Virus record (IMG/VR): IMGVR_UViG_3300045988_119030
Span: 1-21,410 of that record
From: a virus
Direction: 5' to 3' (one strand)
Length of the DNA stretch: 21,410 bases
The notes beneath the pieces were generated by a model. It ran no database searches. It was given only the letters and a program-made list of their open reading frames with translations, and was not told the DNA's origin. The position numbers and the translations under genes were made by a program. Of the stretch, positions 1,327-17,576 are shown piece after piece. Each line of letters begins with the position of its first letter. Positions within the stretch are counted from its first letter, which is position 1.

Positions 1327-1333
1327 TTTTCAT

Positions 1334-1618: not shown

Positions 1619-1858
1619 TCAAGGGATAATCAGTTCTGCGTCATAGACAGGCCGAACCATGCAGGGCGAGCCAAAGCAGTCGAGATTGTAAGTGTCCAAA
1701 TTGAGAGCGTTCCATTCTTCTGCGCCGGTATCTTCATCAACCACAGTCGCGATTTTGATGTAATAGACGTTTCCAGAAGCGGGGTCTTGAAAAATCATAC
1801 CCTCGGGAAGGTCTTCAAATGCAACCATTTTGTTGCTATGCTTAACAGTAATTTTCAT
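1619..1858 (-). CDS. hypothetical protein (~79 aa). The track start at 1867 is GTG; the ATG at 1858 has RBS AAAGGGTGA.
   Basis: ORF. The TGA stop of upstream gene 1864-2217 lies inside this RBS (translational coupling). Confidence 0.55.
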   Translation of the reverse strand: MKITVKHSNKMVAFEDLPEGMIFQDPASGNVYYIKIATVVDEDTGAEEWNALNLDTYNLDCFGSPCMVRPVYDAELIIP

Positions 1859-1863
1859 TTCGT

Positions 1864-2217
1864 TCACCCTTTATAATAGTATTTGTAAGCCCATTCGATA
1901 ATTTCATGGCTTGTGGTAGTCCATTCTTCTTTGGGACTATCGAACTTTTCCGCATACTTTTTGATGTAGTTATTATACTCCATGCGTGCGGTGTCGTATG
2001 CTCCAATAGCCACAATTAAAGCGTGCTTCGCTTCTTCGGCATCAGAGACGGCTTTCTTGCGGTCGGGGCAGTCAGGATAGAGGTTAATCACCCCTACGCG
2101 CGTAATGACTTGCCTTGTCTTTTCATAAAGGCGGTCGCGCGTTTCCCATACTTCATAAAGCTCATCGTCCGCGCGTTTTTCATATGGGTTGAAAGGCTTC
2201 TTTTTCTTACCGAACAT
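1864..2217 (-). CDS. hypothetical protein (~117 aa, starting MFGKKKK...). The long N-terminal extension in the ORF track (to 2469) is probably not translated.
   Basis: RBS AAAGGAG-N10-ATG at 2217. The ATG overlaps the TAA stop of upstream gene 2207-2545 (ATGTTCGGTAA). Confidence 0.5.
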   Translation of the reverse strand: MFGKKKKPFNPYEKRADDELYEVWETRDRLYEKTRQVITRVGVINLYPDCPDRKKAVSDAEEAKHALIVAIGAYDTARMEYNNYIKKYAEKFDSPKEEWTTTSHEIIEWAYKYYYKG

Positions 2218-2545
2218 TTTTCTTTTTCTCCTTTTCTTGCTTATTCCACATTCTATCAAAGAACGCATTTGCGAGGACACGCTTGTAAAGGTTGTCAGGC
2301 ATGGGGCGCTCGCCGTGCTTGTTTCTCCATATCGCGGTGATTTTATCAATATCCGCGATATAGGCTGTAATGAGTGTGCCATCGGAAGCGCTACGAACGA
2401 GAAGAACACCTGTTGTAGTGATAGTGTAGAGAATATCGTCCTCAACGCTGTCGATATATGGTTCGCCAATTCCTACATTATCGTAGATGAAGAGCAGGCG
2501 GTCAATGCGGTCTTGCGTGGCATGTTTTGACATTTTGATAAGCAT
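2207..2545 (-). CDS. hypothetical protein (~112 aa, starting MLIKMSKH...)
   Basis: RBS AAAGAGGT-N7-ATG at 2545. Promoter at 2583-2611 immediately upstream. Confidence 0.55.
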   Translation of the reverse strand: MLIKMSKHATQDRIDRLLFIYDNVGIGEPYIDSVEDDILYTITTTGVLLVRSASDGTLITAYIADIDKITAIWRNKHGERPMPDNLYKRVLANAFFDRMWNKQEKEKKKNVR

Positions 2546-2582
2546 TTGTTTTACCTCTTTCTTTTCCTCTTGGATTGATTGT

Positions 2583-2611
2583 ATTATACCATATGGGGAG
2601 GGGCTTGTCAA
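2583..2611 (-). promoter_or_regulatory. promoter TTGACA-N17-TGgTATAAT for 2207-2545. The -35 lies at the centre of palindrome GGGGCTTGTCAAGCCCC (2600-2616).
   Basis: Minus strand reads aggggcTTGACAagcccctccccatatggTATAAT. Confidence 0.6.
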
Positions 2612-2617
2612 GCCCCT

Positions 2618-2767
2618 TTAATACAATTGTTCCCCATCGTGGTAGCGCTCATATTCCGCTTCAAGGAAGTCGAGAATAGTTTCAAAGTCGTCTGCGTCTG
2701 CGGGGTCGGCAAAGACCTTTTCAAAGACTTCGTTAGTGTGCCAATTGTGAACTCGAACAATATCCAT
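2618..2767 (-). CDS. small acidic protein, 49 aa (MDIVRVHNWHTNEVFEKVFADPADADDFETILDFLEAEYERYHDGEQLY). Not in the ORF track because under 60 aa.
   Basis: RBS AAGAAAGAGGTAAG-N-ATG. Sits between promoter 2798-2826 and the terminator/promoter palindrome at 2600-2616. Confidence 0.5.
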   Translation of the reverse strand: MDIVRVHNWHTNEVFEKVFADPADADDFETILDFLEAEYERYHDGEQLY

Positions 2768-2797
2768 TTTACTTACCTCTTTCTTGATTGTATATGT

Positions 2798-2826
2798 ATT
2801 ATATCATGCGAAAGGGCTTTTGTCAA
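2798..2826 (-). promoter_or_regulatory. promoter TTGACA-N17-TATAAT for small gene 2618-2767. The -35 is inside hairpin AAGGGCTT/AAGCCCTT (2813-2833).
   Basis: Minus strand reads aaagggcTTGACAaaagccctttcgcatgaTATAAT. Confidence 0.6.
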
Positions 2827-2844
2827 GCCCTTTTTCTTATTTTT

Positions 2845-3200
2845 TTATTCTTTTTCTCGAATGGAATAATAAACCTTATTCCCTCGCGGTCTGCGTTTGA
2901 GTTTATGGTCGAGGTATAACTGCATACAATACCAAGTGAATTTGCCGTTGGCATACTCATAGCCATACTTTTTGAATGCCATAAACTGCATTTCAGTCGG
3001 CGTGATAGGTCTGCCCGCCTCATTCAGCAGTTCAAAGACGAGTTTAATCATCTGCTGTTTTTTCCATTCGCGTTCCTCGCGGTCGGCTTTTAAGTCTCTT
3101 TCATACTTGTCGCAAGCGTGTTCCGCGATACTCAGATCAATGGGCGAGAGAGCGCCGACGCGATGGCCTTTTTCAAAACTTCATAAATATCCTTATTCAT
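2845..3200 (-). CDS. hypothetical protein with an apparent -1 frameshift at an A5 run (plus-strand T5 at 3169-3173). The upstream frame gives MNKDIYEVLKK..., the downstream frame continues GHRVGALSPIDL...MIKLVFELL...SIREKE (~118 aa if joined).
   Basis: RBS AAAGGAAAGGGG-N7-ATG at 3200 and promoter at 3231-3259 serve the 5' frame. The long 3' frame has no start or RBS of its own. The two frames join cleanly at G_AAA_AAG. Confidence 0.45.
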
Positions 3201-3230
3201 TGTAGTTCCCCTTTCCTTTACTATACCTGT

Positions 3231-3259
3231 ATTATATCATCTACTTCTGGATTTGTCAA
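3231..3259 (-). promoter_or_regulatory. promoter TTGACA-N17-TATAAT for 2845-3200
   Basis: Minus strand reads aaaagcccTTGACAaatccagaagtagatgaTATAAT. Preceded by terminator 3273-3297. Confidence 0.6.
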
Positions 3260-3272
3260 GGGCTTTTTGGAA

Positions 3273-3297
3273 AAAGAGGGAAAAATTTTCCCTCTTT
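3273..3297 (-). terminator. rho-independent terminator after 3300-3572
   Basis: Stem AGAGGGAAAA/TTTTCCCTCT, then T5. Confidence 0.6.
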
Positions 3298-3299
3298 AT

Positions 3300-3572
3300 T
3301 TATCCCCAATAGACCGAAAGAACGTTGTCAATGTAGCTGGCTTTATAACCATAATTCTGCATGATATCTTTGCAAGCCTGCCTGACCTTCTTGTCATTTA
3401 ATGAAGCAAGATTACACTCGTAAAGTGTTTCGCCCGTTCCTGCCACTCGCTCAATTTCTGGCATGATGTGGTCTTCGATGAACGCCCGCGCGAGGGCATT
3501 ATTTTTAGCTTGAATTTCTTTGCGAACTTCTTCGGCTTTGCGCGTCATTTCATAAGCATATTTAATTTCCAT
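3300..3572 (-). CDS. hypothetical protein (90 aa)
   Basis: ORF. RBS AAAGGAAAGGGAGAT. Promoter at 3605-3633 embedded in a terminator palindrome. Confidence 0.6.
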   Translation of the reverse strand: MEIKYAYEMTRKAEEVRKEIQAKNNALARAFIEDHIMPEIERVAGTGETLYECNLASLNDKKVRQACKDIMQNYGYKASYIDNVLSVYWG

Positions 3573-3604
3573 GTTGTTATCTCCCTTTCCTTTATTGTAT
3601 CTTT

Positions 3605-3633
3605 ATTATAGCATAGAGGGCTTGTTTTGTCAA
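3605..3633 (-). promoter_or_regulatory. promoter TTGACA-N17-TGcTATAAT for 3300-3572. The -35 is inside hairpin AGAGGGCTTG/CAAGCCCTCT (3617-3642).
   Basis: Minus strand reads agagggcTTGACAaaacaagccctctatgcTATAAT. Confidence 0.6.
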
Positions 3634-3651
3634 GCCCTCTATTTAATTTTT

Positions 3652-3960
3652 TTAGCAGTAGGCCAGATTCCCGCGCGCCCAGCCATATACGCTGATTTGA
3701 TTGCACGCCTTGCCGATTTCAAGCGCCTGCTTCTTGGTCTGCACCCTCTTGGACTTGTCAACATAATAAATGCCGTTCGCAAGCCACACACCGCAGTTTC
3801 CGCCGAAGTCCTTAACCGCGTTGATAGCTTCGCGGGCGGTCTTACATTCAACGCCGTTGGTAGCGACCTGCCAGCCGGACTTGTAGTTGACTTTCTTGCC
3901 ATATTTGAGGGTCATGCCGTCGTTTTCAACGAGCTTACGAATAGAACGAATGTTAATCAT
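3652..3960 (-). CDS. hypothetical protein (~102 aa, starting MINIRSIRKL...). The ORF-track N-terminal extension to 4122 is probably 5' leader.
   Basis: RBS AAAGGGAT-N7-ATG at 3960. Two promoters lie upstream in the leader, at 4012-4040 and 4132-4160. Confidence 0.5.
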   Translation of the reverse strand: MINIRSIRKLVENDGMTLKYGKKVNYKSGWQVATNGVECKTAREAINAVKDFGGNCGVWLANGIYYVDKSKRVQTKKQALEIGKACNQISVYGWARGNLAYC

Positions 3961-4011
3961 GTTGTTATCCCTTTCCGGTTTGGTAGGTTTTCCTTCCCTT
4001 ACTGTGATTAT

Positions 4012-4040
4012 AGTATAGCACCGATTCGGGATTCTGTCTA
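4012..4040 (-). promoter_or_regulatory. proximal promoter TAGACA-N17-TGcTATACT for 3652-3960
   Basis: Minus strand reads aaTAGACAgaatcccgaatcggTGcTATACT. Confidence 0.45.
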
Positions 4041-4101
4041 TTGACATTATGCACAAACTTTCGCCATAAAAATTGTTGAACTTGCCTATTGACACAAAAT
4101 T

Positions 4102-4128
4102 CCGGCCGTGCCTGGCGTGCACGGCCGG
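4102..4128 (-). promoter_or_regulatory. GC-rich hairpin (CCGGCCGTGC-N7-GCACGGCCGG) between tandem promoters in the leader of 3652-3960
   Basis: Perfect 10-bp stem. Sits directly after the -10 of promoter 4132-4160. Confidence 0.45.
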
Positions 4129-4131
4129 CCG

Positions 4132-4160
4132 ATTATATCATAAAGTTTTGAAATTGTCAA
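4132..4160 (-). promoter_or_regulatory. distal promoter TTGACA-N17-TgaTATAAT for 3652-3960. GC hairpin 4102-4128 sits immediately downstream.
   Basis: Minus strand reads gcctaTTGACAatttcaaaactttatgaTATAAT. Preceded by terminator AAAAATCTCCCCAAAAATGGGGAGATTTTTTT (4168-4199). Confidence 0.5.
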
Positions 4161-4167
4161 TAGGCAA

Positions 4168-4199
4168 AATATACAAAAAAATCTCCCCATTTTTGGGGA
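4168..4199 (-). terminator. rho-independent terminator after 4225-4473
   Basis: AAAAATCTCCCCAAAAATGGGGAGATTTTTTT. Confidence 0.6.
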
Positions 4200-4224
4200 G
4201 ATTTTTAATTCAAAAAATTTAATT

Positions 4225-4473
4225 TTAGCCATCAACACAAATAATGAGAACGTCATCTTTGGCTTTCAAACCGCTGACCGGCAGTCCCAGCACCCATTCT
4301 TCACTTGCGCCCAAAACATCACCATTCAGAGTCATGCGACCTTTGCGGTCTTTGAGATAGCGACCGCAAGTGTTTTCATTTATCACTTCAATGCCGTTCC
4401 CCTCATAGAACATCAGCGCGCCCTTTACCAGACCAATCACATTTTTAACCATGCCCAAAGTCATTTTTGTCAA
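4225..4473 (-). CDS. hypothetical small beta-rich protein (82 aa). By eye it weakly resembles EutN/CcmL-family barrel proteins (…GASEEWVLGLPVSGLKA…). Unverified.
   Basis: ORF. RBS GAAAGAAG. Promoter at 4514-4542. Terminator at 4564-4597 upstream. Confidence 0.55.
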   Translation of the reverse strand: MTKMTLGMVKNVIGLVKGALMFYEGNGIEVINENTCGRYLKDRKGRMTLNGDVLGASEEWVLGLPVSGLKAKDDVLIICVDG

Positions 4474-4513
4474 CTTCTTTCGTCTTTAATATCGTTCCTC
4501 TTGGAACAATTAT

Positions 4514-4542
4514 AGTATAGCACAAGGTATAACAAAAATCAA
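4514..4542 (-). promoter_or_regulatory. promoter TTGATT-N17-TGcTATACT for 4225-4473
   Basis: Minus strand reads cctaTTGATTtttgttataccttgTGcTATACT. Confidence 0.55.
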
Positions 4543-4563
4543 TAGGTAAAATGTATAAAAAAC

Positions 4564-4597
4564 TCGGCAGGATTTTGTGTATCCTGCCGAGTTTTTT
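4564..4597. terminator. bidirectional intrinsic terminator (A-run, stem CTCGGCAGG/CCTGCCGAG, T7). Terminates 4597-4791 on the minus strand.
   Basis: aaaaaaCTCGGCAGGattttgtgtatCCTGCCGAGttttttt. Confidence 0.65.
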
Positions 4598-4791
4598 TAC
4601 TCTTCCCAACTCTCGATGACTTCACCGGTCATTGCGTCGATAATGTCAACCGAGAGGACGTTGTCCGCGTCCATAAACTTCTGTCCGAGGGCATATGCAT
4701 TTTCCTGTCCCGCGACAGACACTTCATAGCGATAGCGATTATTATCGCCAGCTTTGTAATTGTAGTAGTTAACAGAAACAATAAATAACAT
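4597..4791 (-). CDS. hypothetical protein (64 aa)
   Basis: ORF. RBS AAAGGGGAT-N7-ATG. Promoter at 4822-4849 (TTGACA-N16-TGgTATAAT). Confidence 0.6.
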   Translation of the reverse strand: MLFIVSVNYYNYKAGDNNRYRYEVSVAGQENAYALGQKFMDADNVLSVDIIDAMTGEVIESWEE

Positions 4792-4821
4792 TTGGTTTAT
4801 CCCCTTTCTTTTTATACTCTT

Positions 4822-4849
4822 ATTATACCATAGTTTCGGGATTTGTCAA
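4822..4849 (-). promoter_or_regulatory. promoter TTGACA-N16-TGgTATAAT for 4597-4791
   Basis: Minus strand reads cctaTTGACAaatcccgaaactaTGgTATAAT. Confidence 0.6.
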
Positions 4850-4877
4850 TAGGTTTTTTGAAAAAAGTTTGAAAAAA

Positions 4878-4901
4878 GATTGGAGCATTACTGCTCCAAT
4901 C
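4878..4901 (-). terminator. terminator after 4888-5163. The stop codon is in the loop.
   Basis: GATTGGAGCA-gtaa-TGCTCCAATC, then T6 on the minus strand. Confidence 0.6.
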
Positions 4902-5163
4902 TATTCACCGGATAGTCGATTGGTTTAACCTCAATCGGCGAGTTAGCCCAGTCATAGGAAACGCGGAAAAATTCAGCACAGTGGTAACTAAAATCAGCCC
5001 AGCCAAAAGTCGCAAGATGCGATTTCCAATCTCTGAAATATGGTTCTAATTCTTGCGTGATATAGAGCGTTTCTTCGAGCCGGTCTAAAAGTTTTTCATT
5101 CTTCGCCACATGGAAAACTGCGGTGGTCTTAGTCTCAGCGTCGGTGATGATGTATGTTTTCAT
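4888..5163 (-). CDS. hypothetical protein (~91 aa, starting MKTYIITDAE...)
   Basis: RBS AAAAGGAGC-N7-ATG at 5163. Promoter at 5194-5221. The last codons plus TAA lie in the terminator hairpin at 4878-4901. Confidence 0.55.
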   Translation of the reverse strand: MKTYIITDAETKTTAVFHVAKNEKLLDRLEETLYITQELEPYFRDWKSHLATFGWADFSYHCAEFFRVSYDWANSPIEVKPIDYPVNRLEQ

Positions 5164-5193
5164 TTGAAAAGCTCCTTTTCTTTTGATACTACC

Positions 5194-5221
5194 ATTATAG
5201 CACACTTTTGGAATTTGTCAA
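5194..5221 (-). promoter_or_regulatory. promoter TTGACA-N16-TGcTATAAT for 4888-5163
   Basis: Minus strand reads ccctaTTGACAaattccaaaagtgTGcTATAAT. Confidence 0.6.
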
Positions 5222-5239
5222 TAGGGAAAATGAAAAAAA

Positions 5240-5261
5240 AGAGAAGTTTTTCAACTTCTCT
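5240..5261 (-). terminator. terminator after small peptide gene 5251-5355
   Basis: AGAGAAGTT-gaaa-AACTTCTCT flanked by an A8 / T8 run. Confidence 0.6.
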
Positions 5262-5355
5262 TTTTCAGTTTCTTTTCTGCCCATTCAATGAGTGCGCCCG
5301 CGCCGATTGTCCCAAAGTAAATGAAAAGTAAAACTAAACCGTCATGCGTGCTCAT
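5251..5355 (-). CDS. small hydrophobic peptide, 34 aa (MSTHDGLVLLFIYFGTIGAGALIEWAEKKLKKRS). Single TM helix plus basic tail. Not in the ORF track.
   Basis: RBS GGAGG-N8-ATG. The ATG begins 1 nt after the TAA of upstream gene 5356-5484 (TAAATG). Its TGA stop lies inside the terminator at 5240-5261. Confidence 0.5.
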   Translation of the reverse strand: MSTHDGLVLLFIYFGTIGAGALIEWAEKKLKKRS

Positions 5356-5484
5356 TTAATATTCCTCCACATACTCTGTAAAAACAAGCTCCCAGTCAGG
5401 GCCAAGATCCGGAGCTTTGCAGTATCGCGACTGTCGAATGTCATGCTCATTAGTGATTTTGTTGATAAACTCGAATTCATACAT
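5356..5484 (-). CDS. hypothetical small protein (~42 aa, starting MYEFEFINK...)
   Basis: RBS AAAAGGAGAT-N8-ATG at 5484. Promoter at 5517-5545. Confidence 0.45.
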   Translation of the reverse strand: MYEFEFINKITNEHDIRQSRYCKAPDLGPDWELVFTEYVEEY

Positions 5485-5516
5485 TTTTATTATCTCCTTT
5501 TTTTTACTGTACCAAT

Positions 5517-5545
5517 AGTATAGCAGATAATAGGGCATTTGTCAA
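5517..5545 (-). promoter_or_regulatory. promoter TTGACA-N17-TGcTATACT for 5356-5484 and 5251-5355
   Basis: Minus strand reads ggtaTTGACAaatgccctattatcTGcTATACT. Confidence 0.55.
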
Positions 5546-5562
5546 TACCATTTATAAAAAAA

Positions 5563-5588
5563 ATGTACGAGGTTTAATCCTCGTACAT
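5563..5588 (-). terminator. terminator after 5574-5870. The stop codon is in the loop.
   Basis: ATGTACGAGG-attaaa-CCTCGTACAT, then T8 on the minus strand. Confidence 0.6.
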
Positions 5589-5870
5589 TTCCATTAACGA
5601 TTTGATTTTTTCGATTGTATTTTCAATTTCTTCTACATAGTCGGTTTGCTCCTCACTTGCGCGCATGGCCTGTTCATATGCGTCATAGATAGTTTCGCAC
5701 TGTTCACGGGTGTAGTCTTCTTCTGGAGCGTGTTCCATGGTGACGACTGCTGTCCAAGCGAGCGTTTCTTTATCGTCAAGGTCATCGGCTTTTTCCGCGG
5801 CAGTGGCAAGCTCATGTTCGAGGCGCGTCTTTTCGAGCGAGAGGGTCTTGAGAAAATCCTTATTAGTCAT
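5574..5870 (-). CDS. hypothetical acidic protein (~98 aa, starting MTNKDFLK...)
   Basis: RBS AAAAGGAGAT-N8-ATG at 5870. Promoter at 5903-5930. Stop codon in the loop of terminator 5563-5588. Confidence 0.55.
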   Translation of the reverse strand: MTNKDFLKTLSLEKTRLEHELATAAEKADDLDDKETLAWTAVVTMEHAPEEDYTREQCETIYDAYEQAMRASEEQTDYVEEIENTIEKIKSLMEMYED

Positions 5871-5902
5871 TGTGGTGTATCTCCTTTTCATTTGATGCCT
5901 TT

Positions 5903-5930
5903 ATTATACCACTTCTGGACTGAATGTCAA
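5903..5930 (-). promoter_or_regulatory. promoter TTGACA-N16-TGgTATAAT for 5574-5870
   Basis: Minus strand reads cctaTTGACAttcagtccagaagTGgTATAAT. The iteron cluster lies immediately upstream. Confidence 0.6.
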
Positions 5931-8820: not shown

Positions 8821-8849
8821 ATAATAAAATAAAAAATAAGAAATGTCAA
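8821..8849 (-). promoter_or_regulatory. candidate leftward promoter TTGACA-N17-TATTAT for 8399-8638 / 8026-8421. Divergent from the rightward promoter.
   Basis: Minus strand reads cgacTTGACAtttcttattttttatttTATTAT. Long AT-rich leader. Confidence 0.35.
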
Positions 8850-8931: not shown

Positions 8932-8960
8932 TTGACAAAAAAAATTTTTTCGAGTATAAT
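8932..8960 (+). promoter_or_regulatory. consensus promoter TTGACA-N17-TATAAT for the first rightward gene (8985-10040)
   Basis: Plus strand reads aaacTTGACAaaaaaaattttttcgagTATAAT. GGAGG RBS and ATG 25 nt downstream. A-rich upstream. Confidence 0.6.
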
Positions 8961-8984
8961 ATAAATATAGACTGGAGGTAAAAA

Positions 8985-10040
8985 ATGATAAAACTTGATT
9001 ATTCTTTACAAACTCCAGAAGAAAGAAATCAATTAGTCGAACAAATTTTGGCTGATAATCCAGATCCGCCTGAAAAGTATTTAGAAATTTTAGCAGACTA
9101 TTTGGTTCTTTGTATGGAGAAACAAGAAAAAAAGGAGAAAAAATTATTAACTGATAATCGTATGGCTACAGTTAATAAGCGTGAGACTTCTTTTGAAGGT
9201 CTTGTTTCCCAACTCGAAAATGGCGAAGATGGAATTTATAATTTAATTACAGATAATAGAAATACAATATTTCAACCACATATTACAATTACAAAAAAAG
9301 ATTTAGAAGAGATACCAAGTTTAAATTAGTTAAGAGAAGCCATTAATGTTTGGGAGGCTAAATTAAAAGTAACAGAAGGAAAAGATGCTTTTGTTATTAA
9401 AAAGGCTCTTATTGAAATGCGTAAAGATTAGTATGTTATGAAAAATGCTTATCGTCGTCCAATAGTGCCTACAAAATTAACCAGATCAAAGTCTTATATT
9501 CCATTAGATGATAAAACATTTATTTTTGATGATGATGGTTTTCCCATTCCTGATGGAATTAGTTTATTAAGACCTGAAATATGTTCTGCGGTTTTATGTA
9601 ATTATTCCCGACTAAAACAAGATAGTTGGGGCGAATATGATAAAGATTTATGGTATTTAATGGAGGATTTTGATAAGCTTTGTGATAAAGCCTTAGCTAA
9701 TTATCCTCTTTATGATAGAATCGTTGAATATAAAATTGATGGTTTACAAAATATTGACATTCAAGAGAAAATACAAATGGAATTTGGTATTAAACATAGT
9801 CTTGAATATATTTCAAGTTTATGGCGTAATAAAATTCCAAAATTAATTGCTTCGACTGCGGAAGATGAATATTTAGATAATTATTATTTAAATGTTGAAA
9901 AAGGTAAATATAAAAAATGTAGTCGTTGTGGTAAAATAAAATTAGCTCATAATAAATATTTTAGTAAAAATAAAACAAGTAAAGATGGCTTTTATAGTAT
10001 TTGTAAAAGTTGTCGAAATTCTAAGGCCAAAAAATCTTAA
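8985..10040 (+). CDS. zinc-ribbon protein (352 aa if TAG is read through). Two in-frame TAGs at 9327-9329 and 9432-9434. C-terminal CxxC…CxxC motif. Function unknown.
   Basis: Single frame 8985-10040, interrupted only by TAG and ending in TAA. Consensus promoter at 8932-8960. RBS GGAGG-N6-ATG. Confidence 0.6.
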
Positions 10041-10089: not shown

Positions 10090-11277
10090 ATGGCTGAAAC
10101 ATATTATTGCGAAAAATGTAATCGCACAATGAATGGCACGGAATTCTATTCATCTAATAATTTAGAAAAATATCCTAATGATGGTAAATTTCCTGTGTGC
10201 AAAAAATGTATGACAATGCACGTCGATAATTGGAATCCAGATACTTATTTATGGATTTTACAAGAAGCGGATGTTCCTTATGTTCCAGATGAATGGAATA
10301 AATTAATGGAAAAATATGGGCGCGATCCGCAGTCTATGACCGGTATGACGATTCTTGGACGTTATTTGTCAAAAATGAAACTCAAATAGTTTAAAGATTA
10401 TCGTTGGAAAGATACAGAATTTTTATAGTAGATGGCGAATAATAAATTAGAGCAAACTATGAAGCGTCAAGGATATGATGCTCAATAGATTGCAACCGCT
10501 ATTAAAAAAAGTTCTATTGCTATTCCAGAAGGAGAACTAAAAGAGCCGGTTTATGCTCCACCGCCTAATGCCCCTACGGAAGATTATTTTGCACAATAGA
10601 GTGGTGAAGTTGAACAAGAATTAGACTTAACTGATGAAGACCGCACTTATTTAAGACTTAAATGGGGCAAGACTTATAAACCTGAAGAATGGGTTAAGCT
10701 TGAATAGTTGTATGAAGAAATGATGGCTTCTTATGATATTCAAGGTGCCGGACATAAAGATACGCTAAAATTAATATGTAAGACATCTTTAAAGGCAAAT
10801 CAATTGATCGATATTGGTGATATTGAAGGTTTCCAAAAGATGAGCAAAGTATACGATAGCTTGATGAAGTCTGGTAAATTTACTGCTGCTCAAAATAAAG
10901 CAGAATCAGGTGAATTTGTTGATTCAATTGGCGAATTAATTGAATTATGTGAAAAAGAAGGATATATTGAAAGATATTATGTTGAATAGCCACATGATAA
11001 AGTGGATTTAACTATTCAAGATATGCAACGTTATACTCGCACTCTTATTGAAGATGAAACTAATATCAGCACAATGGTAGAAAAAGCTTTGCGCGAAAAT
11101 GCTAAAGAAGATGAAGAGAAAGCAAAGAACGCGGAAAGCGATATCGTTGATGATGCTGATTTAAGTATTGAAGAACTTGAAAAAACTATTAAAGATAGTG
11201 ATTACGCGGATTTTGAGGAATTTAAAGAATAGGAGTCCGCGCAAGATAATGAGTTCTTATAGAGTTTGGATAAATAA
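10090..11277 (+). CDS. protein with N-terminal CxxC…CxxC zinc ribbon (~395 aa). Nine in-frame TAGs including tandem TAG-TAG at 10431-10436. Possibly small terminase or another DNA-packaging protein by position.
   Basis: One continuous frame joining ORFs 10090-10389, 10708-10989 and 11002-11232. All interruptions are TAG. The TAA stop overlaps the terL ATG (TAATG). Confidence 0.5.
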
Positions 11278-13016
11278 TGGCATTACAAGATTTACTGTAG
11301 TTAAGTGATAGCCGTAGAAAAATAGGTCTATCACCGGAGCGAGTAGAAGCGGTAATGCCCACTATCCGCAAATACGTTGCCTTTTGGAGAGAATATCCTG
11401 ATTTATTTGTAGATTTTATGGTTCGAGGAAGACGCACTGAAATAAAAGATGGAGAATTTAACTTTTATTTTTATTAGAGAGTATTTCTCCGTTCTGTTAT
11501 GCGTTATTAGTATGTTTACGCGGTTTTTCCTCGTGCTTATTCCAAATCATTCTTGTCTGTTATGGCATTAATGATTAGATGTATTTTATATCCTGGTGCG
11601 CATTTGTTCGTTACTTCTGGAGGTAAAGAACAAGGTGCTAGTATTCTTCATGATAAAGTTCAAGAAATATGTGAACTTATTCCAAGCTTTAATCGAGAAA
11701 TTGATTGGAGCCGAGGAAAAACTCTTGAAGGAAAAGATAAAGTTAGATATGTGTTTAAAAATGGTTCAGTTTTGGATAACCTCGCAGCCCGTGAAAGCAC
11801 TCGTGGTTAGCGTCGTCATGGTGGACTAATGGAAGAATGTGTTGGTATTGATGATACCATTCTTCGTGAAGTTATTATTCCTGTTATGGCAATTTCTCGT
11901 AGAGCTAAAGATGGCACTACTAATGAACAAGAGCCATTAAACAAATCACAAATCTATATTACTACTGCTGGTTATAAGGGCACATTTCCTTATGATAGAC
12001 TTATTGGTTTCTTAGTTCGTATGGTAACTTAGCCTGATCGTTGTATGGTATTAGGCGGAACATGGCGAACTCCTGTTGCAGTAGGATTACAAAGTAAAAC
12101 ATTTATTACTGACCAAAAGAATGAAGGAACTTATAATGAAGCTTCATTCGAACGTGAATACGAGTCTAAGTGGTCAGGAACTGTTGAAGATGCTTTCTTT
12201 AATGGAGAGCATTTTGATAGAAATAGAAAACTATTATAGCCTGAATATGAAGCTTCTGGACGTGCGGGCGCGCAAGCTTATTATGTGCTTTCAGTAGATG
12301 TAGGTCGTAAGGGATGCGATTCAGTAGTTTGTGTATTTAAAGTAACACCACAAGCTCAAGGTCCAGCTATTAAATCTTTAGTAAATATGTATACTATGTC
12401 AGATGATCATTTTGAAGATTAGGCTATTAAATTAAAGAAATTATTTTATAAATATAAAGCTAAAACTTTGGTTATAGACGGTAACGGTTTAGGTATTGGA
12501 CTTTTGGATTATATGGTAAAATCTCAAAATGATGAAGACGGTGAATTTTTACCTGATTTTGGTGTTGAGAATGATGATGATGGATATTATAAAAAATATC
12601 GTACACAAAATACTCAATTTGATGCTATGTATGTTATTAAAGCAAATGCTCCAATAAATACTGAATGTCATGCTAATGCTCAGACTCAATTACAGGCGGG
12701 TAAGGTAAAATTCTTAATAGATGAGAGAACAGCTAAAGAAAAATTATTAGCTACTCAAAAAGGTTCAAAAATGACTTCTGAACAAAGGGCAGATTATTTA
12801 AAACCATTTACTTTAACCTCCATATTAAAAGAAGAAATGATGAATTTACGCGAAGAAAATGAAGGTATTAATATTATCCTAAAATAGGCAAATCGCGGAA
12901 TTCGTAAAGATAAATTTTCGGCTTTTGAATATGGATTATATTATTTAAAACTTGAAGAAGATAAAAAGAAAAAACGTAAAAAGTTTAATGCGGCTGATTG
13001 GTGCTTTTTAAATTAA
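11277..13016 (+). CDS. terL: terminase large subunit (~579 aa). Eight in-frame TAG codons, at 11298, 11475, 11508, ~11806, ~12030, 12237, 12420 and 12885. Ends with TAA.
   Basis: Frame-0 continuity across ORFs 11553-11810, 11829-12032, 12045-12239 and 12468-12887. N-terminal ATPase Q-motif FY*RVFL followed by a Walker-A-like PRAYSKS. Walker-B-like STRG*RRHGGLMEE. C-terminal nuclease motifs YVLSVDVGRKGCDSVV and VIDGNGLGIGLLD. Confidence 0.8.
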
Positions 13017-13028
13017 GGAGGGTGGAAA

Positions 13029-13385
13029 ATGCGTGCTTCAAGAGGAGAAATTAAAATTGAAGAAATCTTAGAAGAAGCAGGACTACCTTTTAAAATGGAA
13101 TATATTTTTCCAGATTTAAAAAGCCCAAGCGGGCGTCCGCTTCGTTTTGATTTTGTTATATTTGATGATGATGGAAAAATTGATTTCATTATTGAGTATT
13201 AGGGAAAATAGCATTATGAAGCCAGTTCTAAATTTGGTGGAAAACGCGGTTTATACCAGTAGCAATATAATGATAATCAAAAAAGACGTTTTTGCGCTTT
13301 ACATGATTTTAGATTAATAGAGATTCCATATACCGACGAAAACCTTATTTCTTATGATTATATAATGAAATTAGCAGGTTATTAA
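13029..13385 (+). CDS. Vsr/DUF559-like endonuclease-fold protein (118 aa; restriction-endonuclease-like fold). Probably a free-standing homing-type endonuclease. Three in-frame TAGs.
   Basis: RBS AAGGAGGG-N6-ATG. Motif RPLRFDFVIF…IDFIIEY*GK*HY resembles the DUF559 …DF…iE.DG.QH signature. This is from memory, not a search. Confidence 0.5.
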
Positions 13386-13398
13386 AGGAGGTGGAACT

Positions 13399-15048
13399 TT
13401 GGATACGCAAGATCGTAATGATTAGATTCACGCTAAAGGTTTTGATATTTATAATAGTCGTTATGAATATAATTATAATGATACTATGGATTATGCTAAT
13501 AGAAAAATAAAAGTTGGCACAAAAACTTTAGATGATGCTATTTTAAAACTTGGTGATTATAGTAAGATTAGATACCCAGGTCAAACTCGTATTATCACGA
13601 AACCTGATGTGCTTCGCGCGCTCGCAGAAAGAGATCTAAATGCTTTGCGATATATTTCTAATTTTTATTATGATATAAGTGGTGTATATCAACGAGTTTG
13701 TAATTATGTTGCTTTTTTATACCGCTATGATTGGTATATCGCGGCCGAAACTTATGATGATAGTGTAAAAGAAGAAAAAGTTTTAAAAGATTTTTATAAA
13801 ATGTTGAATTATTTTGATAATAGTTATATTAAAAAGATTTGTGGAGATATTGCTTTACAAGTCGTTAAAAATGGATGCTATTATGGATATATAGTTCCTT
13901 CAGAGAAAAATCTAATTTTACAAGAATTGCCAGTTAGATATTGTAGAACACGTTATAGTGTAAATAATACCCCAGTTGTCGAATTTGATATGCGATTTTT
14001 TGATACTTTTAGAGATATGAATTACCGCTTAAAAGTATTAAAATTATTCCCAGAAGAATTTGCTAAAGGTTATGTTTTATATAAGCAAGGAAAACTTGCT
14101 TTAGAAGAAGCGGTTGGATGCTAGCATACTGGTAGTTGGTATGTTCTTGAGCCAGAAAATTGTATTAAATTTAATATTAATAATAGTGATGTTCCTATTT
14201 TTGTAAATTCCATTCCTACTATTATGGATTTAGATGCAGCGCAAGATCTTGACCGCAAGAAACAAATGTAGAAGTTGCTTAAAATTTTAGTCCAAAAGCT
14301 CCCAATGGATAAAAATGGTGATTTGATATTTGATGTTGATGAAGCCAGAGATATCCATAATAATGCCGTTTAGATGTTATAGAGGGCTATTGGAGTAGAT
14401 GTTTTAACTACATTTACTGATGTAGATTCTATTGATATGTCTGATAAGAATACTACTACAACGACAGATGATTTAGCTAAAGTTGAACGTAGTGTTTATA
14501 ATTCATTAGGTATTTCATAGAATTTATTTAATACTGATGGTAATATGGCTTTAGAAAAATCAGTGTTAAATGATGAATCTACAATAAGAAGTTTAATTTT
14601 ATAGTTTAATATATTCTTTAATAGAATTATTGAGAAAAAGAGTAGTAATAAAAAATATAATTTTAGATTTTATTTATTAGAAACTACTCAAAATAATTAT
14701 CAAACACTTTCTAAAATGTATAAAGAACAAGCGCAAATGGGACAATCAAAATTATTGTCTTAGATTGCTCTTGGACATTCATAGAGTTTTATTCTTAATG
14801 CAGCTCATTTTGAAAATGAGATTTTACATTTAAGTGAAATTATGATTCCTCCTCTTATGAGTTCTACTATGGGTAGTGAAGATATTTTGGGTTTAAAAGG
14901 TTCATCATCTAATAATAAAACTCAAAATAATTCAGGAAGTTCAGGTTCTGGAACTACTAAAGCTTCTAATGGCGAAGCAGGACGTCCGGAAAAACCTGAT
15001 GATTAGAAAAGTGAAAAAACTATTCAAAATAAAGAAGCAATGAAATAA
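13399..15048 (+). CDS. putative portal protein (~549 aa, about 10 in-frame TAGs). The call is by position after terL and by size. The start may be TTG at 13399 (RBS AAGGAGGTG-N5) or ATG at 13486.
   Basis: Continuous frame 1 from 13399 to TAA at 15046-15048, interrupted only by TAG. No motif recognised by eye. Confidence 0.4.
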
Positions 15049-15057
15049 GGAGGATTT

Positions 15058-16641
15058 ATGAAACATACAAGTATTAAATTAAATACACCTTGTGAGTTTA
15101 TAAATATAACTCCTGTAAATCCTTTAATTTCTAAATGCCAAATTAAGGTTTGTTATGTAGATGATAAGCCTAATCGTAATAAAAGCGTAATTACTAAAGA
15201 TGTAGCGACTGAGATGGCTAATAGTCTTCCGGGCAGTCCTATTGTTGGCTTTTTTAATGAGAATGCTGAAGATTTTGAAGAACATAATAGGATAATTGAA
15301 TTATCTAATGGCGAATTTAGAATGAGAGATAATACTCGCCCTTATGGTTTTGTTGATCTTGGAGCTAAAGTTTGGTTTTAGAAATTTTTGGATGATGGTG
15401 TTGCCGAACGTGAGTATTTAATGACTGAAGGTTATTTGTGGACTGGTTAGTATCCTGAGTGTAAACGTGTAGTTGAGAAAGGGAATAATCATTCTATGGA
15501 GCTTGATGAAAAAACATTAAATGCTACGTGGGCAAAAGATAGTAATGGAAAGCCTTAGTTTTTTATTATAAATAAGGCAATTATTTCTAAACTTTGTATT
15601 TTGGGAGAAGAAAATGAACCTTGTTTCGAAGGCTCTCAAATCAATGTGAATTTTTCATTCGATGATGGTTTTAAGAACACTTTGTTCTCCATGATGAATG
15701 AACTTAAAGAATTTATGAAAGAAGGAGGACCCAAAGTGTTTACACAATATGCTGTTGAAATTGGCGATAGTTTGTGGAATTTTCTCTGGTCTTATATTGA
15801 GACTAAGTATCCTGGCGAGCCTAGTAGTTATTGTTCTATTTATCGCATTGAAGGCATTTATGAAGATGCTGGACAAAAGTTTGCTATTCTTCAAAATAGA
15901 CAAGATCAAAAATATTATCGCATGGACTTTTCTCTTACCGATGTAGAAGGCTTTGTTCCTTCTGACGCTTTAATTGAAGTAACTAAGTCTTATACTCCGG
16001 CAGCAGAGCCTCAGTTTGCTCTTGCTGATGTTGAAGCTTTTGAGACTGATTATGCTTCAAAGAAAAAGGCTGAGGAAGAGGACAAAAATAATAAATCTAA
16101 TGGCCAAAACCCTGATAATAAATCAGAGAGCAATGATAATAAAAAGAACCCTGATAATGGGGAACCCTCTAATAAGTCTGATAAAGGCGACAATGGTGAG
16201 AATGATGATAAAAAGAAAAAGAAGAATTATTCTCTTGAAGAAGTTGTTGAATATACTGAACTTAAAGCTCAGTATGATGAATTACAGACTAAATTCGCAG
16301 CTCTTGAAACTGAAAATAATAGCTTGAAAGAGCAAATTGCTCCACTTGCTGAATTTAAAAATGCTGCTGAGAAGAAAGATAAAGAAGATATGATTGCTAA
16401 ATTCTATATGCTTTCTGATGCAGATAAGGCTGATGTTATTGAAAATATTGATAAATATTCTCTTGATGATATTGAAGCTAAATTATCTGTTATTTGTGTT
16501 CGCAACAAGGTGAGTTTCGACCTTGACGAAAATAATAAGCCCAATGGTGCTACTACTTTTAATTTGAACGATAATGGTTCAGAAGATGATGATATGCCCG
16601 CTTGGGTGAAGGCGGCTTTTGCTACCGCCAACAAAAATTAA
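15058..16641 (+). CDS. putative prohead protease and/or scaffolding protein (~527 aa). N-terminal globular domain with 3 TAGs. Central K/D/N/E-rich low-complexity linker. C-terminal coiled-coil (ELQTKFAALETENNSLKEQIAPLAEF), which is scaffold-like.
   Basis: ORFs 15058-15381 and 15601-16641 share a frame and are joined through TAGs at 15380, ~15448 and ~15556. RBS AAGGAGG-N5-ATG. Located immediately upstream of the capsid genes. Confidence 0.45.
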
Positions 16642-16658
16642 TAAGGAGGACATACTAA

Positions 16659-17576
16659 ATGTTTAAAGACTTTTTGAATAAGAATCTTCCTATTAAGTCT
16701 CAGGCAAAGTATGTTGAGTTTGGTTACGGTCAGGTCGAGCCTAATCACCTTTCCGCACAAAGAAATGCTCAAATCTATGCTCAACTTCCTGCCAATAAAG
16801 ACATTAAGATTCTTGAAAACGGTCAGTTTGTAAAGTATGACTATGCTGCTAATGATAATGGTATTGGCGAAGTCAACTTCACTGGCGAAGGTGAATGGAT
16901 GCTCGTTTATAACGAGATCAAGCTTTATCGCGATCATTATGATGGCAGTAAGCAGTGGGATTGCGAATTTGCTATGATTAAAGATGACTATCAGGCTCGT
17001 GTTTATAGCCCTTATGATTGGGAGCATACCGAGGTTGAATATGGTGGTCGTTTCTGGAATGGTGTTGATGAAAAGGGTCAAACCTATAAGTTAATCAATC
17101 AGACCGTTTCCGCAGATCAAGGTTTAAAGACTGTTACTATTGCTGGTCGTGTTTATGATGTTGATGAAACCGGCAAGTTTACTTATGATGGTAATGAATA
17201 TACTCTTGATAGTAATCATCAAGTTAAGAATGTCCCTGTAAAGTATTATTATGATAAACTTCTTACTGATGTTCCTGATATGTATGAAATGAATTGGACC
17301 AATGATCCATATCATAAGTTAGGTATTTATCATGAGAAGTTCATGGAATCTGGCACTTCTATGGTTCCTCGTGTATTTAAGACCATGATTGGTGATCTTT
17401 ATACTACTAATATGATTAATGAAGAGACTCTTGCTGTTGGAGATAAGCTTTCTCCTTCTGCTGCTACAAAGGGTATTCTTAGCAAAACTGGCGACGATTC
17501 AATGACCTGGCAGGTTGTTAAGGTTTATACTATGCCTGATGGTCAAAAGGGCGTCAAGGTAATGCGTATTAAGTAA
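16659..17576 (+). CDS. hypothetical structural protein (305 aa). No in-frame TAG. Possibly a capsid decoration or accessory protein.
   Basis: RBS AAGGAGG-N9-ATG. T-ending codon bias like the MCP gene. Lies between the scaffold-like gene and the MCP. Confidence 0.55.
   Translation: MFKDFLNKNLPIKSQAKYVEFGYGQVEPNHLSAQRNAQIYAQLPANKDIKILENGQFVKYDYAANDNGIGEVNFTGEGEWMLVYNEIKLYRDHYDGSKQWDCEFAMIKDDYQARVYSPYDWEHTEVEYGGRFWNGVDEKGQTYKLINQTVSADQGLKTVTIAGRVYDVDETGKFTYDGNEYTLDSNHQVKNVPVKYYYDKLLTDVPDMYEMNWTNDPYHKLGIYHEKFMESGTSMVPRVFKTMIGDLYTTNMINEETLAVGDKLSPSAATKGILSKTGDDSMTWQVVKVYTMPDGQKGVKVMRIK

What the first reader, a model, noticed from the sequence alone, without database searches (positions are those of the whole stretch)
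8932..10040. A sigma-A-promoter-driven gene with two TAGs gives a truncated 114-aa or a full 352-aa zinc-ribbon protein depending on suppression
The first rightward gene has a textbook host-type promoter (TTGACA-N17-TATAAT at 8932-8960) and a GGAGG RBS, so it should be expressed early. It contains TAGs at 9327 and 9432. Without suppression, translation stops after 114 aa (…EEIPSLN). With suppression the product gains a long C-terminal part ending in a CxxC-N17-CxxC zinc ribbon. This is a natural candidate for a suppression-sensing switch or a timer for the late programme.
Basis: inference. Interest (0 to 1): 0.6.

Follow-up and report, generated by a model that had tools for sequence, protein, structure and literature searches.

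The report
TAG-as-glutamine codons in phage regulator gene
The two "stop" codons inside this gene are ordinary glutamine codons of a common ~190-kb gut phage that reads TAG as glutamine throughout its late genes, so the gene encodes one full-length sigma-like transcription regulator and is not a special two-product switch.

Summary
A perfect TTGACA-N17-TATAAT promoter (8932-8960), a GGAGG RBS and an ATG at 8985 open a frame with two in-frame TAGs and a C-terminal Cys4 zinc ribbon. Small corrections: the second TAG is at 9429-9431, the product is 351 aa, and the ribbon is CxxC-N24-CxxC.

The TAGs are not specific to this gene. The whole rightward arm (8985-21318) is readable only if TAG is a sense codon. 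At all 15 strongly conserved TAG columns in nine genes, non-recoded orthologues have Gln. In relatives the window's two TAGs are CAA or CAG. Other recoded relatives carry TAGs at other Gln columns, and 19 of 63 orthologues carry none. The only apparent stand-alone 115-aa homologue is a standard-code miscall.

The protein belongs to PHROG 5767 ("sigma factor"). It has a σ4-like HTH followed by a zinc ribbon, and its N-terminal half is unassigned. It sits upstream of an SPβ-like packaging/head module. Its host-type promoter is conserved in 49 of 62 orthologues, yet its TAG density matches the late genes and not the TAG-free early genes.

Verdict: a new member of the known code-15 phage phenomenon. 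The "timer" idea survives only as the published arm-wide hypothesis. The suppressor tRNA was not found.

The parts
8932..8960 (+). Host σA/σ70-type promoter: TTGACA, 17-nt spacer, TATAAT, with no extended -10 TG
   Evidence: 12/12 match. An equivalent site scoring at least 11/12, always with a 17-nt spacer, lies mostly 23-34 nt upstream of the start codon in 49 of 62 orthologues, against 0.6% of shuffled upstream regions.
8974..8978 (+). Ribosome-binding site GGAGG, 6 nt before the ATG
   Evidence: The ctggaggt motif is kept in L005 and L008.
8985..10040 (+). Coding sequence of a 351-aa sigma-like regulator (PHROG 5767), read with TAG = Gln; stop codon TAA
   Evidence: PHROG 5767 match with E 9e-55 in a single stretch covering residues 31-347, spanning both TAGs. 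Full-length homologues number 6838 at E<=1e-5 and 1273 cluster representatives. Uninterrupted orthologues occur in standard-code Enterococcus and Brevibacillus phages.
9327..9329 (+). In-frame TAG, codon 115, decoded as Gln
   Evidence: This codon is CAA in L005-L008 and VRE9_3. Across 63 orthologues the column is Q 32, TAG 12, E 11, D 4. It lies inside predicted helix 111-129.
9429..9431 (+). In-frame TAG, codon 149, decoded as Gln, within the conserved motif EMRKDQYV
   Evidence: This codon is CAG or CAA in relatives. The column is Q 50, TAG 13 and nothing else. It is the most conserved Gln of the family and lies inside predicted helix 133-156.
9558..9893 (+). σ-factor domain-4-like helix-turn-helix domain (residues 192-303)
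9918..10013 (+). Cys4 zinc ribbon, CxxC-N24-CxxC (C312, C315, C340, C343)
   Evidence: The four Cys are invariant in 75 diverse homologues. The model shows β-strands at 309-311 and 318-320. Coordinates were verified.
8821..8849 (-). Divergent leftward σA-type promoter (TTGACA, 17-nt spacer, TATTAT; 11/12)
   Evidence: It faces the first leftward gene (8399-8812), which itself carries one in-frame TAG.
10090..21318 (+). Co-oriented TAG-recoded packaging/head module: YonG_N-like, TerL, small nuclease, portal, YonD_N-like, YonB-type capsid and others. Context showing that recoding is arm-wide.
   Evidence: The ORFs are contiguous only if TAG is a sense codon. In-frame TAG counts within the coding regions are 9, 8, 3, 9, 3, 0, 0, 0, 3, 4, 9. 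Only 49 nt, with no terminator, separates this module from the regulator gene.
31..5930 (-). Array of leftward early-type units: 8 perfect and 4 11/12 σA promoters, most with an extended -10 TG, interleaved with terminators and small TAG-free ORFs. Context only.
   Evidence: for promoters and terminators. Leftward ORFs carry 0 TAG and have no PHROG or Pfam hits.

Best explanation
The window comes from a very common ~190-kb SPβ-like siphophage of gut Firmicutes that uses genetic code 15 (TAG = glutamine) in its rightward arm, which holds the packaging, head and tail genes.

The gene at 8985-10040 encodes a single 351-aa protein. Its two TAGs are ordinary Gln codons that arose by CAG/CAA-to-TAG drift, as they did in the neighbouring genes.

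The protein is a conserved transcription regulator. It has a σ-factor domain-4-like HTH, a C-terminal Cys4 zinc ribbon and an unassigned helical N-terminal half, and it is annotated 'sigma factor' as PHROG 5767. It sits at the head of the late module.

Inferred steps, not shown here:
- The gene is transcribed by host σA holoenzyme from the conserved consensus promoter.
- Full-length protein appears only once TAG is decoded, presumably by a tRNA(CUA) encoded elsewhere in the genome.
- The protein then acts on late transcription.

Dependence on suppression is a property of the entire late arm. It is not a switch built into this gene, and the 114-aa peptide is at most an unselected by-product of translation before suppression is available.
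For: TAG is a sense codon across the arm:
- The rightward ORFs from 8985 to 21318 are long and contiguous only when TAG is read as sense, and 9 of the 12 genes carry TAGs.
- No gene in the window or in the relatives examined ends in TAG.

TAG means Gln:
- At 43 TAG positions in nine conserved genes, 13 non-recoded reference genomes have Gln on average 52% of the time. All 15 strongly conserved columns are Q.
- CAA+CAG is depleted to about 3.0 per 100 codons, against 4.0-4.6 in non-recoded relatives, and adding TAG restores the deficit.

There is no conserved switch position:
- Window codons 115 and 149 are CAA and CAG/CAA in L005-L008, VRE9_3 and L002. L005 and L006 instead have a TAG at codon 212, where the window has CAA.
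- Of 63 orthologues, 44 carry 1-18 TAGs, concentrated on Gln columns in the window's Gln-type lineages (97, 115, 149, 255, 260), and 19 carry none.

The protein is full length throughout the family:
- PHROG 5767 matches in one stretch covering residues 31-347.
- The family has 1273 representatives, almost all 320-390 aa.
- P0236, the apparent 115-aa homologue, continues through its TAG in the DNA.

Fold:
- The full model has pLDDT 88, and both TAGs fall inside helices.

Genomic context:
- The same gene sits upstream of phrog_3314/YonG_N, then TerL, then portal, in standard-code Enterococcus VRE9_3 and Brevibacillus Sundance and in all metagenomic relatives examined.
- The promoter is conserved in 49 of 62 orthologues.
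- TAG density in this gene equals that of the late genes and exceeds that of the leftward genes.
- A related human-gut group with TAG = Gln and tRNA-Sup-CTA is published (phAss-1, PMC10607447).
Against: - No suppressor tRNA was found. There is none in the window, none in about 19 kb of the early arm, none in 10 kb to the right, and no CUA-anticodon tRNA near 70 relatives. The source of TAG decoding is therefore inferred.
- The timing of transcription and translation was not measured.
- The gene is recoded despite sitting behind an early-type promoter. This fits neutral drift, but it equally fits selection for code-gating (see rival 1).
Confidence: 0.8

Rival explanations
1. Code-gated late regulator, a refined form of the reader's timer. 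The gene is transcribed early from the host-type promoter together with the leftward early units, but in-frame TAGs are selectively kept so that the regulator is made only after the phage suppressor accumulates. Because no terminator separates it from the packaging genes, the whole read-through transcript would be gated the same way. This would form an AND-gate or feed-forward delay on the late programme.
For: - The promoter is of the same consensus class as 13 leftward early-type promoters and is the only rightward one. It is conserved across the family.
- Unlike the TAG-free leftward genes, this gene carries TAGs at late-gene density in 44 of 63 orthologues.
- Only 46-49 nt, with no terminator, separates it from the next gene.
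- The general hypothesis is published for other recoded phages.
Against: - The TAG positions are not conserved, and 19 of 63 orthologues, including cultured Enterococcus phages, work with no TAG at all.
- TAG density is no higher than in neighbouring genes. In the window it is, if anything, lower: 2 of 12 Gln codons against 48 of 124, Fisher p = 0.21.
- The pattern is what neutral drift predicts for any gene that is not needed before suppression is available.
Confidence: 0.25
2. This gene is a dedicated suppression-sensing switch that yields a functional 114-aa protein without suppression and a 351-aa zinc-ribbon protein with it.
For: The standard-code ORF of 114 aa has a good promoter and RBS. 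Another lineage (L011) also has a TAG at column 115.
Against: - Column 115 is simply a conserved Gln column (Q 32, TAG 12).
- Relatives that are 76-81% identical have CAA there.
- Truncation would occur inside a helix and would remove the DNA-binding half.
- No stand-alone N-terminal homologue exists; P0236 is a miscall.
- Neighbouring genes carry more TAGs than this one.
Confidence: 0.04
3. The TAGs are genuine stops: a pseudogene, an assembly error or a split gene.
For: Standard-code gene callers split the gene into 114-aa and 200-aa ORFs.
Against: - Identical TAGs occur in independent assemblies from different samples (L004, L013, L091-L096).
- The frame has zero TAA/TGA, with P about 3e-12.
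- Essential genes such as TerL and portal carry 8-9 TAGs each.
Confidence: 0.01
4. In this genome TAG is decoded as an amino acid other than Gln, for example Glu (as seems to be the case in a sister sub-clade) or pyrrolysine.
For: A related sub-clade places TAG on Glu-conserved columns, so the assignment is not uniform across the family.
Against: For the window itself, all 15 strongly conserved TAG columns are Q and none is E. Gln codons, not Glu codons, are depleted.
Confidence: 0.03

Closest known systems
Genetic code 15 (TAG to Gln) recoded gut phages: crAss-like, Lak and the 'gemstone' clades of Borges et al. (bioRxiv 10.1101/2021.08.26.457843; Nat Microbiol 2022), validated by metaproteomics in Peters et al. 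(PMC9523058)
   Same: In-frame TAGs sit at Gln positions and are concentrated in structural and late genes. Early genes are TAG-free. TAG is not used as a terminator. Closely related genomes differ in whether they are recoded (L008 is not recoded, L005 is mildly recoded, the window is strongly recoded).
   Different: This is a different lineage: a ~190-kb SPβ-like siphophage of Firmicutes-type hosts. No suppressor tRNA or release-factor gene lies in or near the window. Here the putative late regulator itself, behind a host-type promoter, is recoded.
phAss-1 / proposed 'Phassvirus' group and its wider clade (Babkin et al. 2023, PMC10607447)
   Same: Human-gut siphovirus-type genome of about 136 kb with a very long tape-measure protein. 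TAG = Gln in 41 ORFs, mostly virion genes. The paper places it in a wider group with Enterococcus phage EF1 and compares it with Spbetavirus. EF1 carries an orthologue of the gene studied here.
   Different: tblastn with the regulator at E<=1e-5 did not hit phAss-1, and there is no nucleotide similarity to deposited phages. The genome here is larger, about 190 kb. phAss-1 encodes three tRNA-Sup-CTA genes, whereas none was found in the roughly 50 kb examined here.
PHROG 5767 'sigma factor' of large Firmicutes siphophages (Enterococcus VRE9_1-4, EF1, EF5 and H1; Brevibacillus Sundance gp013; weaker C-terminal matches in Geobacillus E3, phiCD211 and Mammaliicoccus phages)
   Same: Full-length homology: 40-42% identity with E about 1e-66 to the Enterococcus phages, and 26% to Sundance. 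The position upstream of the phrog_3314/YonG-like, TerL and portal genes is the same. VRE9_3 has the same consensus promoter. The Cys4 ribbon is invariant.
   Different: Those phages use the standard code and have no TAG in the gene. Some have PhoH or other genes inserted between the regulator and the packaging genes.
σ70-family sigma factors, domain 4 (for example σH 3mzy, S. aureus σB 8x6g, WhiG 7lq4, E. coli σE region 4 bound to -35 DNA 2h27)
   Different: No σ2 domain is detectable. There is no Pfam or NCBIfam σ hit in any of 75 members. A Cys4 zinc ribbon follows the HTH. The N-terminal 190 residues have no assigned fold.
Phage late-gene regulators placed at the head of late operons: λ/21 Q antiterminators, SPO1 gp28 and gp33/34, T4 gp55; and SPβ YonO RNA polymerase, which transcribes the yonP-bhlB late cluster (PMC8270828, PMC5467207)
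   Different: No sequence homology to any of these was found. SPβ itself lacks this gene and uses YonO instead. The function as σ factor, activator or antiterminator is untested.

Membership tests
Genetic code 15 (TAG = Gln) phage | Conserved genes are interrupted by in-frame TAG but by no TAA or TGA | tested here: met
   Nine of 12 rightward genes carry TAGs. The ORFs are contiguous only with TAG as a sense codon. The focal frame has P about 3e-12.
Genetic code 15 (TAG = Gln) phage | TAG positions align with Gln in orthologues from standard-code genomes | tested here: met
   All 15 strongly conserved TAG columns are Q, and mean Q frequency across 43 TAGs is 52%. Codons 115 and 149 are CAA and CAG/CAA in relatives.
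Genetic code 15 (TAG = Gln) phage | TAG is not used as a terminator | tested here: met
   All called genes in the window, L004, L005 and L008 end in TAA or TGA.
Genetic code 15 (TAG = Gln) phage | The genome encodes a suppressor tRNA with a CUA anticodon and Gln identity (present in only about half of predicted code-15 phages, PMC11210395) | tested here: not met
   No tRNA lies in the window, in 19 kb to the left or in 10 kb to the right. No CUA tRNA lies near 70 related loci. The remaining ~140 kb of the genome could not be read.
Genetic code 15 (TAG = Gln) phage | Peptides show Gln at TAG positions | not testable with these tools
   This needs metaproteomics of gut samples that carry the phage.
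PHROG 5767 ('sigma factor') | Significant full-length match to the family profile | tested here: met
   E 9e-55, 187.6 bits, residues 31-347 against profile positions 77-393 of 393.
σ70-family sigma factor | Domain 4 (region 4.1-4.2 HTH, the -35 recognition fold) | tested here: met
σ70-family sigma factor | Domain 2 (regions 2.1-2.4: core binding, -10 recognition, DNA melting) | tested here: inconclusive
σ70-family sigma factor | Binds core RNA polymerase and directs promoter-specific initiation | not testable with these tools
   This is a biochemical property.
Programmed stop-codon switch producing two functional products (read-through isoforms) | The stop codon is conserved at a fixed position among homologues | tested here: not met
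   The TAGs are CAA/CAG in close relatives. Other lineages have TAGs at other columns, and 19 of 63 orthologues have none.
Programmed stop-codon switch producing two functional products (read-through isoforms) | The short product corresponds to a domain and/or exists as a free-standing homologue | tested here: not met
   Codon 115 lies inside helix 111-129. The only 115-aa homologue is a miscall of a recoded full-length gene.

The most novel reading that the evidence does not exclude
The sigma-like regulator is transcribed with the early genes from a conserved host-σA promoter but is deliberately written in the late (TAG-containing) code. Its synthesis would then wait for the phage's code switch. 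Because the packaging genes follow without a terminator, the same would apply to the whole read-through late transcript. Genetic-code change would be the primary early-to-late timer, acting on the master late regulator itself. Transcriptional control alone would not set the timing.
Probability: 0.2. Interest if true: 0.6.

Novelty: new member of a known kind. Interest (0 to 1): 0.33.

Why it matters
For annotation: this is a very abundant human-gut phage. One of its proteins is indexed in about 1,700 collection blocks. Its late genes, including the candidate late regulator, are shredded by standard-code gene calling, and database fragments such as P0236 are artefacts of that.

For biology: the locus is a clean test bed for the published but untested idea that stop-codon recoding times late gene expression. 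An early-type, strongly conserved host promoter drives a putative late regulator that is recoded like the late genes. Natural relatives exist with 0, 1, 2 and up to 18 TAGs in the same gene, and some TAG-free relatives are cultured (Enterococcus phages).

Beyond the finding: the same family appears to contain an independent TAG reassignment to a different amino acid (Glu). If confirmed, that would be of wider interest for the evolution of the genetic code.

Tried and rejected
1. TGA or TAA recoding, or a different code on the left arm. No code makes the left arm gene-dense. It is instead an array of small promoter-ORF-terminator units.
2. Assembly chimera as the cause of the GC jump at about 8 kb. 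Rejected: window 4176-20040 is collinear with L004 at 97.5% identity, and longer contigs carry both arms.
3. Rfam families and tRNAs in the window: none found.
4. Nucleotide similarity to deposited phages: none found.
6. A stand-alone N-terminal protein. P0236 is a miscall. P0184/L012 is a short contig with an upstream in-frame TGA and is uninformative.
7. The search for the suppressor tRNA. I walked 10 kb beyond each window edge and scanned about 70 related loci, and found only ordinary tRNAs (Met, Lys, Leu). The rest of the ~190-kb genome could not be reached with the available look-ups.
8. Host identification from MAG labels. The labels are scattered (Mollicutes, Clostridia, Bacilli, and also Treponema, Bacteroidales and Methanosphaera), and one 'MAG' carries two different phages of the family. 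The contigs are therefore phage DNA swept into bins and give no host evidence.
9. A conserved late-promoter motif between the regulator and the next gene. None is visible beyond the RBS.
10. TAG depletion in the focal gene relative to its neighbours in the window: not significant (Fisher p = 0.21).

Full report
**1. What is in the sequence**

- TTGACA (8932-8937), a 17-nt spacer and TATAAT (8955-8960) form a 12/12 consensus promoter.
- GGAGG lies at 8974-8978, 6 nt before the ATG at 8985.
- In-frame TAGs are at 9327-9329 (codon 115) and 9429-9431 (codon 149).
- The frame ends with TAA at 10038-10040.
- The read-through product is 351 aa, not 352.
- It ends in CxxC-N24-CxxC (C312, C315, C340, C343), not N17.

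The frame has no TAA or TGA in 351 codons of 28% GC DNA. Composition-matched shuffles give a mean of 25.6, and the analytic P is about 3e-12. The other two frames carry 16 and 54 such stops.

**2. The TAGs are not special to this gene**

With TAG read as a sense codon, the whole plus strand from 8985 to 21318 becomes a tight series of long ORFs. Within their coding regions these carry 2, 9, 8, 3, 9, 3, 0, 0, 0, 3, 4 and 9 in-frame TAGs.

The ORFs are, in order:
- the focal gene
- a YonG_N/phrog_3314 protein
- the terminase large subunit
- a small DUF2726-type nuclease
- the portal protein
- a YonD_N protein
- an unknown protein
- a YonB-type capsid protein
- further head genes

Beyond the window come YomW, YomV, the YomU tube protein and a ~2,750-aa tape-measure protein. 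This is an SPβ-like siphovirus morphogenesis module. No gene ends in TAG.

**3. TAG means glutamine in this genome**

I aligned nine orthologous genes from the window and about 60 related loci. I then scored each TAG column using only 13 relatives that are not recoded.
- For the window's 43 TAGs, the reference residues are Gln 52% on average.
- All 15 strongly conserved columns are Q.
- CAA+CAG is depleted in the recoded genes (about 3.0 per 100 codons, against 4.0-4.6 in non-recoded relatives), and TAG makes up the deficit.

For the focal gene:
- Codon 115 is CAA in L005-L008 and in Enterococcus phage VRE9_3.
- Codon 149 is CAG or CAA in L005-L008, VRE9_3 and L002. It lies in the motif EMRKDQYV and is the most conserved Gln of the family: across 63 orthologues the column is Q 50, TAG 13 and nothing else.

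**4. There is no conserved switch position and no free-standing short form**
- L005 and L006 (81% identical protein) have CAA and CAG at 115 and 149, and a TAG at codon 212, where the window has CAA.
- Among 63 full-length orthologues, 44 carry 1-18 TAGs. In the window's Gln-type lineages these concentrate on Gln columns (97, 115, 149, 255, 260). Nineteen orthologues carry none, including the cultured standard-code phages.
- The family has 6838 hits at E<=1e-5 and 1273 cluster representatives, almost all 320-390 aa.
- The short database entries are artefacts. P0236 (115 aa) ends exactly before column 115, but in its contig the frame runs on through that TAG and two more to a full-length C-terminus.
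- In the AlphaFold model (pLDDT 88), codons 115 and 149 fall inside helices 111-129 and 133-156. A 114-aa product is therefore not a domain, and it would lack the DNA-binding half.

**5. What the protein is**

It matches PHROG 5767, labelled 'sigma factor', at E 9e-55 in one stretch across both TAGs. I tested that label.
- No Pfam or NCBIfam σ model hits any of 75 diverse members, even at E<=1.
- PDB profile searches are empty.
- Whole-model fold searches are uninformative.
- hhalign puts RpoE region 4 on residues 227-271, but weakly.

The safe description is a σ4-like HTH followed by an invariant Cys4 zinc ribbon, with an unassigned helical N-terminal half. Whether it is a true σ factor, an activator or an antiterminator remains open.

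**6. Context and regulation**

The same gene sits upstream of the same packaging genes in Enterococcus phage VRE9_3 and Brevibacillus phage Sundance, and in every metagenomic relative examined.

Its promoter is strongly conserved. 49 of 62 orthologues have a match of at least 11/12, always with a 17-nt spacer and mostly 23-34 nt from the start codon. Only 0.6% of shuffled controls reach that score.

The left arm of the window explains the odd ORF map.
- It holds eight perfect and five 11/12 σA-type promoters, all pointing leftward, most with an extended -10 TG.
- These are interleaved with strong terminators and small ORFs that match no known family.
- This is a typical early or host-takeover array.
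- Its genes carry no TAG, except the one next to the divergent promoters.

The promoter at 8932 is the only rightward member of this class. No terminator separates the regulator from the packaging genes.

Across 37 recoded relatives, the regulator's TAG density (0.83 per 100 codons) equals that of the downstream late genes (0.74; p = 0.89). It exceeds that of the leftward genes (0.22; p = 9e-5). The gene therefore looks 'early' by its promoter and 'late' by its code.

**7. Mechanism**

Shown here:
- TAG = Gln across the arm.
- One full-length conserved regulator.
- A conserved host-type promoter.

Inferred:
- Host σA holoenzyme transcribes the gene.
- The full-length protein requires a TAG-decoding tRNA that I could not find. 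There is none in the window, in 19 kb to the left, in 10 kb to the right, or near about 70 relatives. About 140 kb of the ~190.6-kb genome remains unread.
- The protein then acts on late transcription.

The published hypothesis that recoding delays late and lytic functions (Borges et al.; also summarised in PMC10607447 and PMC11210395) applies to the whole arm.

Whether the TAGs in the regulator are selected as a gate or merely tolerated cannot be decided from sequence. The variable positions, the TAG-free orthologues and the ordinary TAG density favour 'tolerated'.

**8. Verdict**

The finding is a new member of a known kind (code-15 gut phages), in a lineage related to the phAss-1/EF1/SPβ-like group.

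Interest is moderate to low for the finding as posed. It is raised somewhat by two things: the combination of an early-type promoter with late-type coding, and the natural series of relatives with 0 to 18 TAGs in the same gene.

**9. Side observation**

This may be more novel than the finding itself. Five related loci from ruminant metagenomes (L069, L063, L059, L058, L067) form a coherent sub-clade whose nearest neighbours are not recoded. In these loci TAG falls on Glu-conserved columns, not Gln-conserved ones.
- L069: strongly conserved TAG columns are E 22, D 5 and Q 0, out of 92 TAGs.
- L063: E at 14 of 15 strongly conserved columns.
- L059: E at 13 of 15.
- GAA+GAG is the codon class that is depleted, not CAA+CAG.

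The phage-recoding papers I read describe TAG as Gln only. This needs complete genomes, the identity of the tRNA, and proteomics.

Noticed in passing
Related loci L069, L063, L059, L058, L067 (sigma-like gene at about 10001-11050 in L069, plus the downstream structural genes): A coherent sub-clade from rumen and ruminant MAG bins, 64-86% identical to each other in the sigma-like protein, with non-recoded nearest neighbours. In it, in-frame TAGs fall on Glu-conserved columns and not Gln-conserved ones. L069 has strongly conserved TAG columns E 22, D 5, Q 0; L063 has E at 14 of 15; L059 has E at 13 of 15. GAA+GAG is the depleted codon class, not CAA+CAG. This suggests an independent TAG-to-Glu reassignment within the same phage family. 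I did not find it described in the phage-recoding papers I read.
   Followed up: partly
window 31-5930, minus strand (also 8821-8849): Eight perfect (12/12) and five 11/12 σA-type promoters all point leftward, most with an extended -10 TG. They are interleaved with strong minus-strand terminators and small ORFs that have no PHROG or Pfam match. The region is GC-richer (0.39-0.47 vs about 0.28-0.35), hypervariable between relatives, and looks like an early or host-takeover array. This explains why the left arm looks non-coding under every genetic code.
   Followed up: partly
window 16659-19380, plus strand: The three genes around the YonB-type capsid gene carry no TAG at all, prefer CAG over CAA and have higher GC (0.35-0.40). 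The same holds in L004 and L005. The presumably most highly expressed virion genes avoid the recoded codon.
   Followed up: partly
window 18721-18749, plus the T-run to about 18757, plus strand: A GC-rich hairpin (GGGGAGAAGGGA...TCCCTCTCCCC) followed by a T-run sits directly after the capsid gene. It is conserved in position and form, though not in sequence, in L005 and L008. It is probably an intrinsic terminator or attenuator after the major capsid gene, and the consensus scan missed it.
   Followed up: no
window 8399-8812, minus strand: The first leftward gene, next to the divergent promoters, is the only leftward gene with an in-frame TAG. With TAG read as sense it gives a ~130-aa protein with an N-terminal hydrophobic segment, and it is called that way in L004 and L091.
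   Followed up: no
window 13029-13385, plus strand: A 118-aa DUF2726 / homing-endonuclease-like nuclease (phrog_9084 and phrog_559, E about 1e-26) sits between TerL and portal and carries 3 TAGs. It is conserved at this position in all close relatives. In VRE9_3 the terminase gene is instead split by a homing endonuclease.
   Followed up: no
proteins P0180 and P0253 (homologues of the focal gene): Two homologues match the family for the first ~150 and ~93 residues and then diverge into unrelated sequence. This suggests insertions (an intron, a mobile element or a frameshift) inside the regulator gene in some relatives.
   Followed up: no
loci L091, L093, L096; contigs of 190,642, 190,610 and 380,007 bp: Two independent assemblies end at the same point about 19 kb left of the regulator and are ~190.6 kb long. 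A 380-kb contig is about twice that length, so it is probably a concatemer assembly. The 197-aa protein of window 18787-19380 is indexed in about 1,700 collection blocks, so the phage is very widespread in gut metagenomes.
   Followed up: partly
loci L013-L090 (GTDB species-representative MAGs): Contigs of this phage family, up to 176 kb, are binned into MAGs labelled Mollicutes, Treponema, Bacteroidales, Methanosphaera, Saccharibacteria and others. One 'Mollicutes' MAG carries two different family members (L013, L021). These are probably phage contigs contaminating, or entirely constituting, the bins.
   Followed up: no
window 10090-10230, plus strand: The next gene (YonG_N/phrog_3314, 395 aa, 9 TAGs) also begins with a CxxC...CxxC zinc-ribbon-like motif (MAETYYCEKCNRT...FPVCKKC). 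Its position just upstream of TerL suggests a small-terminase-like or DNA-recognition role.
   Followed up: no
window 65-538, minus strand: A 157-aa predicted membrane protein lies behind an 11/12 promoter (596-568). In longer contigs it is followed by a MazE-antitoxin-like gene. It is identical in 14 contigs.
   Followed up: no
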